A stretch of 64,000 bases of DNA from the NCBI RefSeq assembly GCF_964204865.1, contig NC_135253.1:16988001-17052000 (forward strand). The letters are read 5' to 3'. This DNA comes from Styela clava (lineage: Eukaryota). This document shows positions 33,001 through 36,000 of the stretch, piece by piece. Each line of letters starts with the position of its first letter. Within the stretch, counting starts at the first letter, position 1. Made by a program: the position numbers.

Positions 33001-36000
33001 ATGCAATCAGGAAAACTCACTCAAAATAATTACTATATTCTTGCTTTTCAGTTATCGTGATTCATCATTAACATGTTGCTCTTTACAATGTAATAATATA
33101 TCATTGGTGAATTAGTGAATTCTCACTGCTAATTTTTTTTTTCTGTAATTAACTTTTTTAGAAAATATCTAGATAGTTAGTTAAGTATTATTAGATTCTA
33201 TTGCTTTTATTTAAATGGAAGGAGAGTCATCTGAAATGGGTGGAACTGCGTCAAAAGGATCAGTTCCAGAGTTGAAAATACTGGTATGGAATATACAAGG
33301 TTTACTCGATGAATTCCTAACTGAACGTTCAAAAGGAGTCGTTGGAATTGTTGAAGGAAACAAGCCTGCAGTGATAATGTTACAAGAAGTAATAGAATCA
33401 ACTTATTCTTATTTTAATAAGGCTTTGAGTTCAAACTACATGGGATATTCCCCCTATGATTTAAGACAAGGATGCTCTCATTATTTCACTGCAATATTCA
33501 TCAGAAAAAAACAAATAGGTTCTACATCAGCTACAGTTACTGTGTATCCTGATTCATTACTAGGAAGAGATTTGATGGTCGTAAACGACGATTATCATGG
33601 TTATAAAATGGCTTTTATAACATCTCATTTGGAAAGTATGCCCAAAAGAATGGCTGAAAGAAAGAAGCAGCTTGCTAGTCTATATCAGACTATGATATCA
33701 CAACCGGATAATCAAACAGTAATTTATGGAGGAGACACAAATCTTGAGGATGAAGAATTCAACTCGGTAGTCAAGGATGGAAAGTTTGATCTCGATAAAG
33801 TAGCTGATGTATGGAATCTCCTGGGATCACCAGATAGTACTAAATATACCTGGAACACGGAATTGAATGACAACACTAATGAAGAAGGCCGCCACAGATT
33901 GGACAGGATATTTTTAAGACAATGTGGAAAGGAGACAACGCAGTTCTTTAAACCCACTAGCATGAAGTTTGTTGGTATGGAAAGATTGCCAAGTGGAAGA
34001 TTCATATCTGATCACTGGGGTTTAATCGTGCAATTTGCACAATAACTATAGTCAGCATATTGCCCTACAATATATTATTTTAGAAGTACAAATTTTCTTT
34101 GATAATAAAATCAGTTATCTTCAACTGGAGGTCGCCTGAACCCTTTTGGGGTTCATGAGCTCTGCATGCATAAGATGAAAAAAAAACTACTAACAAATGT
34201 GGCTTAGCTTTCTTTAAACAATTATTGGACACAACTCTATAAAACCAGACAGCACTGCAAAGCAGGATCTTGCCCATATGAACAAACATGTTTATCTGCA
34301 TCAAAAGACTATTCAGCATTTTATTGTATTTTCATAGGTTCATACCTTAAAAGTACGCTTCACACTGTTTGTACTTGAGTATATCATCTATGTACAGAGT
34401 TTCTGACATCACATCTTTTATCACCCTCCAAAGTCAAGGTCATTTCTGTGTGCAATTTTGATGAAAAAATATTGTTTCTAGTTGGACACATTACTTGTAC
34501 ATAACAGTATTGATTAATTTTATTTGAAGGGTTCTACAGCTTTTAAACAAATCCTTATCAAAATCCTTACTATTGCAATGGTTTGTAATTATAAAGTTAT
34601 TAGGAAATTCCTACTATTTATATATACACCACAAAGCTTCAATATTTATAATAAATTAAAATTTGAACTATTTTACTATGTCCCAATATCATGCTTTTTA
34701 GACTATATTTCATTTTTCATATATATATCAGCATGTTTGTTTTTTAATTCAATTGCCGTAAACTATGCCATTGTAAATTTATTCAATGCAATATTTTGTT
34801 TTAAGTTCAACTTTAACATATTTGTTCTATTTAATTCACTTTTGTAATATCAATGCAGGTGAATTGCTATAGCACTACTGCTTAAAAACATGGATGAGGC
34901 AATTGAGCAATTCCTAAGCATAACCAATACTGATTCAAGGGATATGGCTGAATATTATCTCAATGTCAGCAATGGAGATTTACAAATGGCATTGGGAATG
35001 GTTTATGAAGATGGTGGAGCTTCCAGCTCTAAGACAGAAGTCAAAAAATCTGATAATGATTGTGTTATTGTTGATGACTTAAAACCAAATATAACAGTTT
35101 TAGAGTGGAATATACAAGGTTTACTTGATGACTATTTACAAGAAAGAACAGTGGCGGTCGTGAATACTATTCGACAGTATTCTCCAACTGTGGTAATGCT
35201 ACAAGAAGTTATATTAGAGACATATCTATATATGAAAAGTGCATTAAAATCGACATATACTGGATTCTCGCCTTCAGAAATTAGTAGTCAATGTGGCCAA
35301 TATTTTACATGTATTTTCATAAATAAAAGTCTCTTCAAATCATGCACAGCAAAAGTTGTTTCATTCTCTGGATCAAGACAAGGAAGAGATATATTGATAG
35401 TTGAAGGTAAATGTCACAACCTTGATGTAGCAGTGTTGACGTCTCATCTGGAAAGTACTAAAACTGGCGAGCAAGAAAGAAAAAGACAGCTTGGTATATT
35501 GTATTCCACAATGATGCAATTTCCTTCTGTAAGCACTGTTATTTTTGGTGGTGACACCAATCTCAGAGATGCTGAGTTTACCTCTGTTGTTCACTCTGGT
35601 AAATTTGATGCTACATTGGTGAAAGATATATGGGAGATTCTTGGTTCTCCTCAAGATGTAAGATATTCATGGGATTTGCAAAATAATGACAATCAAGTTA
35701 AAGATGGAAAAGCAAGACTTCGATTTGCGAGAATGTATACTAGAGTTGAGACAAGCAAGCAACATTTCAAACCAACGGAGATGCGATTTGTTGGAATGAA
35801 GAGACTTTCATGTGGCATGTTTCCATCAGATCATTGGGGTATTTTGACCACATTTGCTGTATGAATATACCTTTACCTTGAGGTCCATGCCATCAGCAAC
35901 TATGACTTTCAGTTTTTCTGATTGATGTGTATCAGTTTCCAGGGTTTCACATTCCATGACACATTCCCAATCATGATCTTTCGCCAATATGTTTACATTT

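What the first reader, a model, noticed from the sequence alone, without database searches (positions are those of the whole stretch)
33215..35864. Tandem intronless TDP2 paralogs with complementary losses
Seen: A lacks the UBA domain, has GDTNLE and keeps RLDR. B keeps the UBA domain and GDTNLR but has RFAR (GCG codon) where the motif is normally RFDR. Both have WNIQGL. Established: canonical TDP2 has WNIDGL, GDTNLR and RFDR; the first Asp lines the metal site and the second is a conserved EEP-family residue. The core N, E, H, S, D, N, D, H residues are retained in both. Inference: a sub- or neofunctionalised pair, such as a ubiquitin-recruited attenuated form plus a free form with altered substrate contacts. 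Vertebrate TDP2 is single-copy and multi-exon, so these may be retro-derived extra copies.
Basis: partly seen in the sequence, partly recalled or inferred. Interest (0 to 1): 0.65.

Follow-up and report, generated by a model that had tools for sequence, protein, structure and literature searches.

The report
Tandem TDP2 paralogs in a sea squirt
Two neighbouring single-exon copies of the DNA-repair enzyme TDP2 sit in a Styela sea-squirt genome: one is the ordinary tunicate form with one odd change, the other a faster-evolving copy without the ubiquitin-binding domain, and most of the "odd" motifs are shared by all tunicates.

Summary
Two intact single-ORF TDP2 homologues lie head-to-tail: A (33215-34045, 276 aa, EEP domain only) and B (34890-35864, 324 aa, UBA_4 + EEP). 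The window is ascidian, Styela clava or a very close relative. Both genes are already in RefSeq as "TDP2-like", and a 2024 paper mentions a TDP2 duplication in S. clava.

The interpretation needs correcting:
- WNIQGL is tunicate-wide (16 of 16 tunicate rows).
- The tunicate norm at RFDR is RFER/RYER (10 of 10 non-Styela B-type sequences). B's change is therefore a Styela-specific Glu-to-Ala, seen in 3 of 3 Styela B sequences. A's Asp is most simply a reversal.
- B is the orthodox, slowly evolving tunicate TDP2, not an extra copy.
- A belongs to an older UBA-less clade that evolves about 3-4 times faster. It keeps all eight core catalytic residues but has changed DNA-contact positions (K/R241P, R276E/T, F325L).
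- Retro-origin is neither shown nor excluded.

I found no canonical WNIDGL copy in any tunicate sequence I saw. Exon structure in other tunicates, dN/dS and structure models could not be obtained. Interest is modest.

The parts
33215..34045 (+). Gene A: UBA-less TDP2 paralogue, single ORF of 276 aa plus stop
   Evidence: ORF. Pfam Exo_endo_phos over residues 24-267 and no UBA. Best PDB matches are TDP2. Same 90% cluster as S. clava XP_039249622.1.
33296..33298 (+). A Gln28 (CAA), the Q of WNIQGL; equivalent to mouse Asp132
   Evidence: Q in 16 of 16 tunicate rows; D in 18 of 19 non-tunicate rows.
33641..33643 (+). A Pro143; equivalent to the 'cap' residue K/R241
   Evidence: P in 4 of 4 A-type rows; K or R in 13 of 13 B-type tunicate rows.
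33746..33748 (+). A Glu178 (GAG) of GDTNLE; equivalent to the 'floor' residue R276
   Evidence: E in the 3 Styela A rows, T in P0122, K in P0005. R in 19 of 19 non-tunicates.
33899..33904 (+). A Leu229-Asp230 of RLDR; equivalent to F325 and D326
   Evidence: L in 4 of 4 A-type rows. D in 5 of 5 UBA-less tunicate rows.
34104..34109 (+). AATAAA 59 nt after the stop of A; likely polyadenylation signal
   Evidence: This is a pattern only; no transcript data were available.
34890..35864 (+). Gene B: UBA + EEP TDP2, single ORF of 324 aa plus stop
   Evidence: ORF, Pfam, PDB. Same 90% cluster as S. clava XP_039249603.1, with 4 of 324 residues different.
34893..35024 (+). UBA_4 domain of B (residues 2-45)
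   Evidence: Pfam UBA_4, E 8.8e-12, profile positions 1-43 of 43.
35115..35117 (+). B Gln76 (CAA), the Q of WNIQGL
35727..35729 (+). B Ala280 (GCG) of RFAR; equivalent to D326, which is Glu in other tunicates
   Evidence: It is the only one of 86 tunicate-conserved columns at which B deviates. Ala is present in 3 of 3 Styela B sequences.
36370..36375 (+). First AATAAA after the stop of B, 506 nt downstream
   Evidence: Pattern only.

Best explanation
This is an old tandem duplication of the tunicate TDP2 gene (Mg2+-dependent 5'-tyrosyl-DNA phosphodiesterase, EEP fold) in a styelid ascidian, Styela clava or a very close relative.

B is the species' ordinary TDP2. It has an N-terminal ubiquitin-binding UBA-like domain plus the catalytic domain, evolves slowly, and keeps the DNA 'cap, floor and grasp' residues. 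It carries the tunicate-wide active-site signature (D132Q, M214Q, D326E and others) and one private change, Glu-to-Ala at the 326 position.

A belongs to a UBA-less paralogue lineage. That lineage arose before the split from at least one other species and has evolved about 3-4 times faster. It keeps all eight core metal, general-base and phosphate-binding residues, so it is most likely still a phosphodiesterase. Positive or aromatic DNA contacts have been replaced (K/R241 to P, R276 to E or T, F325 to L, plus changes in the M7 loop). Its substrate binding is therefore probably altered or relaxed, and it cannot be recruited through ubiquitin.

Shown: gene anatomy, homology, the lineage distribution of each motif, tree position and rate asymmetry.
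Inferred: that both are active, that B's Ala lowers rather than abolishes activity, and that A has a shifted substrate preference.
For: Anatomy and family.

Species.

Lineage-wide motifs:
- Position 132: Q in 16 of 16 tunicate rows; D in 18 of 19 non-tunicates (N in Branchiostoma floridae).
- Position 326: D in 19 of 19 non-tunicates; E in 10 of 10 non-Styela B-type tunicates; A in 3 of 3 Styela B rows; D in 5 of 5 UBA-less rows.
- Of 70 columns conserved in non-tunicates, 9 are replaced across tunicates.

Trees:
- Tunicates 100/100.
- 9-row subclade 100/99.
- A + P0122 100/100.
- UBA-less clade 93/83.
- B + S. clava + P0002 99/95.

The AU test rejects placing the UBA-less clade outside all other tunicate TDP2s (p 0.0137).

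Rates:
- 45 versus 11 unique changes (Clavelina outgroup, p 5e-6).
- 37 versus 15 (Ciona, p 0.003).
- 57 versus 15 and 40 versus 13 with two further outgroups.
- Path lengths 1.13 versus 0.27.

Conserved columns: B deviates at 1 of 86 tunicate-conserved columns; A and P0122 both deviate at 15 of 86.

Profile scores: B scores highest of 15 tunicate rows against a non-tunicate TDP2 profile, 250 bits against 228 for A.

Residue roles: PMC5778467 (passages) and PMC4925160 (passages).
Against: - No activity, expression or structure data exist. Structure prediction could not be obtained.
- The enrichment of A-type changes at DNA-contact positions depends on how the M7 loop is aligned. It is 5 of 10 versus 10 of 76 (p 0.0125) with the wide set, but 2 of 7 versus 13 of 79 (p 0.60) with the strict set.
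- The UBA-less clade has only moderate support (93/83). The order of the three lineages inside the 9-row subclade is unresolved, and the AU test does not reject an alternative grouping (p 0.104).
- The groups for the AU tests were named after the tree had been seen.
- In other EEP enzymes the residue lost in B is functionally important. APE1 D283 is listed among key residues, and D283G is a reduced-function variant (PMC3679070, passages). B may therefore be more impaired than I assume.
- The RefSeq model of A in S. clava starts only at Met55. However, an 80-aa record (P0281) shows the N-terminus intact in that haplotype.
Confidence: 0.75

Rival explanations
1. B has become a ubiquitin-recruited, catalytically crippled form because it lost the carboxylate that supports the catalytic His. 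A, which regained Asp, now carries the phosphodiesterase activity with new substrate contacts. This would be a hand-over of catalysis between tandem paralogues.
For: - The only deviation of B at 86 conserved columns hits position 326.
- That change is in 3 of 3 Styela B sequences.
- All 5 UBA-less rows have Asp there.
- The equivalent APE1 residue is functionally important (PMC3679070).
- TDP2 also has non-catalytic signalling roles (PMC5778467).
Against: - A has lost basic and aromatic DNA contacts, so it is a poor candidate for the main TOP2-adduct repair enzyme.
- Asp in the UBA-less clade predates B's Ala. P0002, the B orthologue nearest to the Styela sequences, still has Glu, while P0122 and P0005 already have Asp. 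The two changes are therefore not coupled in time.
- All other catalytic and DNA-binding residues of B are intact.
- As I recall, Asp-to-Ala/Asn at this position in APE1 lowers but does not abolish activity. No call here shows this.
Confidence: 0.12
2. A is a decaying or neutrally drifting duplicate with no function of its own.
For: - A evolves about 3-4 times faster than B.
- Against the S. clava RefSeq proteins, A differs at 8 of 222 residues and B at 4 of 324 (Fisher p 0.078, not significant).
- Database models of A are N-terminally short, at 222 and 156 aa.
Against: - The 276-codon ORF is intact and followed by AATAAA.
- The orthologue P0122 is only 61% identical yet has an intact 278-aa ORF, the same N-terminal length and all eight core residues.
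- P0281 shows the N-terminal 80 residues intact in the other haplotype.
- Between A and B, pN 0.39 is well below pS 0.72, though pS is saturated.
Confidence: 0.08
3. One or both copies are retro-derived. For example, A could be a 5'-truncated retrocopy of the B-type mRNA (hence no UBA), or the tunicate TDP2 as a whole could descend from a retrogene that replaced a multi-exon parent.
For: - Both genes are single ORFs, while a neighbouring gene is spliced (Methyltrn_RNA_3 profile split over two ORFs).
- Vertebrate tdp2 has introns (zebrafish tdp2a exon 3-intron 3 boundary, PMC11369425).
- A LINE-like ORF2 with an open 1114-aa frame lies in the window.
- An A9 run lies 133 nt after A's stop.
- Loss of the 5' domain fits 5' truncation.
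Against: - Head-to-tail adjacency in the same orientation fits unequal crossing-over better than retroposition.
- There are no flanking direct repeats or shared flanks.
- The A9 run begins 69 nt after the end of the AATAAA signal, too far for a typical tail.
- B is the orthologue of the normal tunicate gene, not an extra copy.
- The exon structure of other tunicate TDP2 genes could not be read, because no eukaryotic DNA collection was open.
Confidence: 0.15

Closest known systems
Vertebrate TDP2 (TTRAP/EAPII); solved catalytic domains of human, mouse and zebrafish (e.g. 5J3P, 4GZ1, 4F1H)
   Same: EEP catalytic domain with N, E, H, S, D, N, D, H in the same motifs. B has the same UBA-like + EEP architecture. 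These are the best solved-structure matches for both proteins.
   Different: - Tunicate-wide replacements: D132Q, D135L, M214Q, D326E, R354M/L and a longer loop after GDTNLRD.
- B has Ala at 326.
- A lacks UBA and has P241, E276 and L325.
- Both are single-exon here.
Zebrafish tdp2a / tdp2b paralogue pair (PMC11369425)
   Same: Two TDP2 paralogues in one genome, one closer to the canonical form and dominant (tdp2b), the other more divergent (passages).
   Different: The fish pair stems from whole-genome duplication and lies at separate loci with duplicated neighbours. Both fish copies keep the N-terminal region. The Styela pair is tandem, and one copy has lost the UBA domain.
N-terminally deleted TDP2 (delta 1-100) studied in DT40 cells
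   Same: A catalytic domain without the ubiquitin-binding module, as in A. It rescues etoposide sensitivity only partially (PMC5778467, passage).
   Different: That is an engineered truncation of an otherwise canonical enzyme. A also carries changed DNA-contact residues.
APE1 and other EEP-superfamily nucleases
   Same: Shared fold and motif order. The WN.DGL and R.D motifs have counterparts in APE1 (D70, D283). I recalled this mapping; no call here tested it.
   Different: About 15% identity to TDP2 according to the review (PMC5778467). Neither A nor B is closer to APE1 than to TDP2. The only non-TDP2 model hit was xth (exodeoxyribonuclease III) for A, at 22 bits against a cut-off of 99.

Membership tests
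TDP2 (5'-tyrosyl-DNA phosphodiesterase, EEP superfamily) | EEP catalytic domain whose closest characterised relatives are TDP2 | tested here: met
   Pfam Exo_endo_phos in both. For each protein, 13 of 13 PDB matches are TDP2. Both fall inside the tunicate TDP2 clade, 100/100.
TDP2 (5'-tyrosyl-DNA phosphodiesterase, EEP superfamily) | Four catalytic motifs with N120, E152, D262, H351 (human numbering; mouse +10), plus H236, S239, N274, D358 | tested here: met
   All eight residues are present in A and B. The definition comes from PMC11369425 and PMC5778467.
TDP2 (5'-tyrosyl-DNA phosphodiesterase, EEP superfamily) | Second-shell acidic residues: D132 (named as Mg-interacting in the review) and D326 (RFDR) | tested here: not met
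   Position 132 is Gln in A, B and all 16 tunicate rows. Position 326 is Ala in B, Asp in A and Glu in 10 of 10 other tunicates. Because orthologous tunicate TDP2s share the 132 and 326 changes, this argues for a lineage variant, not for exclusion from the family.
TDP2 (5'-tyrosyl-DNA phosphodiesterase, EEP superfamily) | DNA-binding cap (H236, S239, R/K241), floor (D272, N274, R276) and grasp (W307, L315, F325) | tested here: inconclusive
   B keeps K241, R276, W307 and F325; its L315 equivalent is Gln, as in most tunicates. A has P241, E276 and L325 and keeps W307. The alignment of the M7 loop is uncertain.
TDP2 (5'-tyrosyl-DNA phosphodiesterase, EEP superfamily) | N-terminal UBA-like ubiquitin-binding domain | tested here: inconclusive
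   Met for B (UBA_4, E 8.8e-12). Not met for A: no Pfam hit, and tblastn of the whole window with B residues 1-65 gave no match at E below 1 other than B itself. The domain is also absent from P0122 and P0005.
TDP2 (5'-tyrosyl-DNA phosphodiesterase, EEP superfamily) | Mg2+-dependent hydrolysis of 5'-phosphotyrosyl-DNA | not testable with these tools
   This needs recombinant protein assays.
Processed retrogene | Intronless copy of an intron-bearing parent, with a poly(A) remnant and target-site duplications, at a locus unlinked to the parent | tested here: inconclusive
   - Intronless: yes.
- Flanking direct repeats: none.
- Only an A9 run, beginning 69 nt after the end of AATAAA.
- The copies are adjacent, not unlinked.
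- The exon structure of the parent could not be read.

The most novel reading that the evidence does not exclude
In Styela the ancestral, ubiquitin-recruited TDP2 (B) has lost the carboxylate that supports its catalytic histidine. It now acts mainly as an attenuated enzyme or a ubiquitin-binding scaffold. The UBA-less paralogue (A) regained Asp at that site and remodelled its DNA cleft, and now carries a distinct phosphodiesterase activity on another phosphotyrosyl or related substrate. This sits on a tunicate-wide rebuilt metal site (Gln for Asp132, Glu for Asp326), which would mean tunicate TDP2 catalysis differs in detail from the vertebrate single-Mg2+ scheme.
Probability: 0.12. Interest if true: 0.5.

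Novelty: new member of a known kind. Interest (0 to 1): 0.3.

Why it matters
TDP2 removes trapped topoisomerase II from DNA ends and is a drug target, so natural variants at near-active-site positions are free mutational data.

All tunicates seen replace the Mg-interacting Asp132 by Gln and Asp326 by Glu. One species then tolerates Ala at 326 in its main copy. These facts show which second-shell residues are dispensable in nature.

The UBA-less, fast-evolving paralogue is a modest example of domain loss plus substrate-cleft change after tandem duplication.

None of this opens a long-standing question. The genes are already annotated, and the duplication has been noted in print.

Tried and rejected
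- Third copy or hidden UBA exon: tblastn of A, B and B's UBA region against all 64 kb found nothing. The best extra hit had E 0.41.
- dN/dS between A and B: synonymous sites are saturated (pS 0.72), so the ratio is not informative.
- Retrogene hallmarks: no target-site duplications or shared flanks. The A9 run is too far from AATAAA.
- Mapping D326 onto a generic EEP nuclease: I aligned the TDP2 profile with the endonuclease domain of the LINE in the window. Only a weak N-terminal match resulted (probability 0.4%), so the mapping to APE1 D283 rests on recall.
- N-myristoylation idea for A-type proteins (MGG..SK at the start of P0122 and at Met8 of A): weakened. An ungapped alignment from Met1 gives equal lengths to PELK (21 residues each), and A has Glu2, not Gly2.
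- The 25-of-26 identical nucleotides between A and B over the WNIQGLLD codons might have been a gene-conversion tract. It is the only run of 11 or more identical bases. Identical codons occur at 52 of 119 identical residues, so chance at the most conserved motif suffices.
- Bacterial promoter and terminator scan: no more than shuffles give (20 found against 16.9 ± 3.9), and not relevant to an animal genome.
- tRNA and Rfam scans: 0 hits.
- Structure prediction: not ready. The two jobs that were accepted (81, 82) were interrupted (91, 92). No models and no fold search.
- Schellenberg 2012, Shi 2012 and the 2016 NAR paper on Tdp2 are not held.
- The unnamed 734-aa hit P0277 (two TDP2 domains) has canonical WNLDGL/LRFDR motifs and is not tunicate, so I set it aside.
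Full report
**What is there**

The window has no N, about 35% G+C, and carries animal-type content. This includes a LINE-like ORF2 with reverse transcriptase and an EEP endonuclease, a DUF4371 transposase-like ORF, and a spliced Methyltrn_RNA_3 gene whose two ORF pieces I searched separately and did not join.

At the reported place two ORFs lie head-to-tail on the + strand:
- A: 33215..34045, 276 aa.
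- B: 34890..35864, 324 aa.

They are separated by 844 bp that contain an AATAAA 59 nt after A's stop.

Pfam finds only the Exo_endo_phos domain in A (residues 24-267, whole profile). In B it finds UBA_4 (residues 2-45, E 8.8e-12) plus Exo_endo_phos. The two proteins are 48% identical over 260 residues. For each protein, all 13 solved-structure matches are TDP2.

tblastn of the whole window shows no UBA remnant upstream of A and no third copy.

**Whose genome**

An exact look-up puts B in a 90% cluster with Styela clava XP_039249603.1. It puts A in a cluster with S. clava XP_039249622.1. B differs from the RefSeq protein at 4 of 324 residues, and A at 8 of 222. The window is therefore S. clava or a very close relative (Stolidobranchia, Styelidae). 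It is not human.

Both genes are already annotated as 'tyrosyl-DNA phosphodiesterase 2-like'. One paper states that TDP2 duplications occur 'in tunicates (Styela clava)' (PMC11369425, passages read). It is the only paper of the held library with both 'TDP2' and 'Styela'. The only paper with 'TDP2' and 'Ciona' is unrelated by its title and abstract. I found no paper that discusses the motif changes. Supplements, including that paper's full tree, were closed.

**The motifs in context**

I aligned these sequences:
- A and B.
- The two S. clava RefSeq proteins.
- Two proteins from an unnamed ENA contig.
- Twelve further tunicate TDP2s (Clavelina, Ciona savignyi and ten unnamed).
- Nineteen named non-tunicate animal TDP2s.

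Unnamed vertebrate-like hits that might be human were left unfetched. I use mouse-type numbering (human = mouse minus 10; PMC4925160).

| Position | Non-tunicates | B-type tunicates | UBA-less tunicates |
|---|---|---|---|
| 132 (WNIDGL) | D in 18 of 19; N in Branchiostoma floridae | Q in 13 of 13 | Q in 3 of 3 rows covering it |
| 326 (RFDR) | D in 19 of 19 | E in 10 of 10 non-Styela rows; A in 3 of 3 Styela B rows | D in 5 of 5 (A, its two S. clava counterparts, P0122, P0005) |
| 276 (GDTNLR) | R in 19 of 19 | R in 10 of 13 | E in 3 Styela A rows, T in P0122, K in P0005 |

The eight core residues N130, E162, H236, S239, D272, N274, D358 and H359 are kept in every row that covers them.

More widely, 9 of the 70 catalytic-domain columns conserved in at least 17 of 19 non-tunicates are replaced in nearly all tunicates. 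These are D132Q, D135L, C147V/I, M214Q, G284, G285, P287, D326E and R354M/L.

WNIQGL is therefore a tunicate-wide trait. The tunicate norm for RFDR is RFER/RYER, and only B's Ala is special.

**History of the pair**

Maximum-likelihood trees of the catalytic domain were built with 22 rows and 34 rows. The 34-row tree left out three partial or near-duplicate rows: P0121, P0219 and P0221. The trees give:
- Tunicates: 100/100.
- A subclade of nine rows: 100/99.
- Within it, B + S. clava B + P0002: 99/95.
- P0003 + P0004 + P0006: 100/99.
- A UBA-less clade, P0005 + (A + P0122): 93/83, with A + P0122 at 100/100.

The order of these three lineages is unresolved. An alternative that unites the A and B lineages to the exclusion of the others is not rejected (AU p 0.104). 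Placing the UBA-less clade outside all other tunicate TDP2s is rejected (AU p 0.0137), though I named that group after seeing the tree.

The duplication is therefore older than the split between the window species and the source of P0122, which is 61% identical to A. It is younger than the tunicate radiation. Parsimony needs three changes at position 326. The simplest path is D-to-E on the tunicate stem, E-to-D in the UBA-less lineage, and E-to-A in Styela B.

A full-library scan with A found no further cluster above 50% identity. It gave 988 hits at E up to 0.001. Of the 150 listed, only P0121 (96%) and the 80-aa P0281 (98%) exceed 50% identity.

P0281 carries residues 1-80 of the S. clava-like haplotype, with WNIQGL intact. 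The RefSeq start at Met55 therefore looks like a model artefact.

**Rates and constraint**

Relative-rate counts, A against B:

| Outgroup | Unique changes, A vs B | p |
|---|---|---|
| Clavelina | 45 vs 11 | 5e-6 |
| Ciona | 37 vs 15 | 0.003 |
| P0003 | 57 vs 15 | 7e-7 |
| P0008 | 40 vs 13 | 3e-4 |

P0122 against P0002 behaves in the same way.

Among 86 columns at least 80% conserved in eleven B-type tunicate sequences, B deviates at one, position 326. A and P0122 both deviate at 15.

The review PMC5778467 (passages) assigns these roles:
- H236, S239 and R241 form the DNA 'cap'.
- D272, N274 and R276 form the 'floor'.
- W307, L315 and F325 form the cleft for the 5' nucleoside.
- L134, Y188, M214, M215 and R216 form the adduct pocket.
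- D132, E162 and D358 are the Mg-interacting residues.

A-type proteins have P241 (4 of 4 rows), E or T at 276, L325 (4 of 4), and changes in the M7 loop. Styela A also has N308 and L214.

The enrichment at DNA-contact positions is 5 of 10 versus 10 of 76 (p 0.0125) with the wide residue set. With the strict set it is only 2 of 7 versus 13 of 79 (p 0.60), so it is suggestive, not established.

Against a profile built from the 19 non-tunicate enzymes, B scores highest of the 15 tunicate rows (250 bits) and A scores 228. Synonymous divergence between A and B is saturated (pS 0.72, pN 0.39).

**How it most likely works**

Both proteins keep every residue that mutagenesis shows to be essential. 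D262, E152, S229 and H351 substitutions abolish activity in the human enzyme (PMC5778467). I therefore take both for Mg2+-dependent phosphodiesterases.

B is the standard enzyme. Its UBA-like domain binds ubiquitin, and loss of that domain only partly impairs cellular function in vertebrate cells (same review).

B's Ala replaces the acidic residue that, in my recollection of EEP enzymes, hydrogen-bonds the catalytic His (APE1 D283-H309). The papers I could read only list D283 among key APE1 residues and D283G as a reduced-function variant (PMC3679070). No held paper combines 'TDP2' with any of D316A, D326A, D316N, D326N or D122A. A broader search on TDP2, D316, D326, Asp326, Asp316 and D122 returned 56 papers. 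The 15 listed do not mention TDP2 at all, and I did not see the other 41. I therefore expect attenuation rather than loss, at low confidence.

A cannot be recruited through ubiquitin and has lost two basic and one aromatic DNA contact. I read it as a paralogue with altered or relaxed substrate binding.

**Retro-origin**

Points for:
- Both genes are intronless, while a neighbouring gene is spliced.
- Vertebrate tdp2 has introns.
- A 5'-truncated retrocopy would lack the UBA domain.

Points against:
- Tandem same-strand adjacency.
- No target-site duplications or shared flanks.
- No convincing poly(A) remnant.
- B is the orthologue of the normal tunicate gene.

Exon structures of other tunicate TDP2 genes could not be read with the open collections, so this stays undecided.

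**Verdict**

This is a real, well-described pair of TDP2 paralogues that is already annotated and noted in print. Three points are new here:
- Two of the 'odd' motifs belong to all tunicates.
- The main copy in Styela has a private Glu-to-Ala at a family-invariant acidic position.
- The UBA-less copy is an older, fast-evolving lineage with changed DNA-contact residues.

Structure models were not obtained: searches found the tool not ready, and jobs 81 and 82 were interrupted.

Noticed in passing
window 21190-24534 (-) and 24710-25441 (-): LINE-like retrotransposon. An open 1114-aa frame carries a PHD-like finger, an EEP endonuclease and a reverse transcriptase. A 243-aa ORF just upstream on the same strand has no Pfam match and may be ORF1.
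   Followed up: partly
window 18362-19477 (+): 371-aa open frame with DUF4371 (E 2.2e-26) and a DUF659 fragment. It looks like a transposase-derived sequence.
   Followed up: no
window 30345-31160 (+), A-run 31208-31217: A third consecutive single-ORF gene on the + strand. It is an ARF-like GTPase (Pfam Arf E 2.2e-37; best PDB match ARL3) with an N-terminal hydrophobic stretch and an acidic linker. An A10 run lies 48 nt after its stop.
   Followed up: partly
window 32243-32970: A pair of 16-nt terminal inverted repeats, 94% complementary (32243-32258 and 32955-32970), brackets about 730 bp between the ARL-like gene and A. It looks like a MITE-type insert.
   Followed up: no
window 36623-37121: Tandem array of a 130-nt unit, 3.9 copies, 86% matches, downstream of B.
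   Followed up: no
window 41966-42790 and 42949-43491 (-): A Methyltrn_RNA_3 (SPOUT-type RNA methyltransferase) gene split over two ORFs: profile positions 35-302 and 1-36. The genome therefore does splice neighbouring genes. The pieces were searched apart and not joined.
   Followed up: partly
window 33287-33312 vs 35106-35131: 25 of 26 nucleotides are identical between A and B over the WNIQGLLD codons, although synonymous sites are otherwise saturated. It is the only run of 11 or more identical bases. Chance at the most conserved motif can explain it.
   Followed up: yes
all tunicate TDP2 sequences aligned: Tunicate-wide signature in TDP2: D132Q, D135L, C147V/I, M214Q, M215G, D326E, R354M/L and a longer loop after GDTNLRD. 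Nine of 70 otherwise conserved columns are replaced. Window A has Arg at 354 and Asp at 326, as non-tunicates do.
   Followed up: partly
A residues 1-14 (33215-33256) and P0122 N-terminus: P0122 starts MGG..SK, and A has the same pattern from its second Met (33236). This resembles an N-myristoylation consensus. An ungapped alignment from Met1 fits better, and A has Glu at position 2, so this is probably chance.
   Followed up: partly
S. clava XP_039249622.1 (P0121), P0221, P0281: Database versions of A are N-terminally short (222 aa from Met55; 156 aa). A separate 80-aa record carries residues 1-80 intact in that haplotype, so the RefSeq start looks like a model artefact. P0219 (the B version) and P0221 (the A fragment) each come from a single ENA contig of 4227 nt. 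If this is one contig, the tandem pair is reproduced independently.
   Followed up: partly
P0012 (unnamed tunicate TDP2, 334 aa): This protein starts with Met, has no UBA hit, and carries an insert after WNIQGL. It belongs to a different tunicate subclade. UBA-less forms may therefore have arisen more than once, or the model may be incomplete.
   Followed up: no
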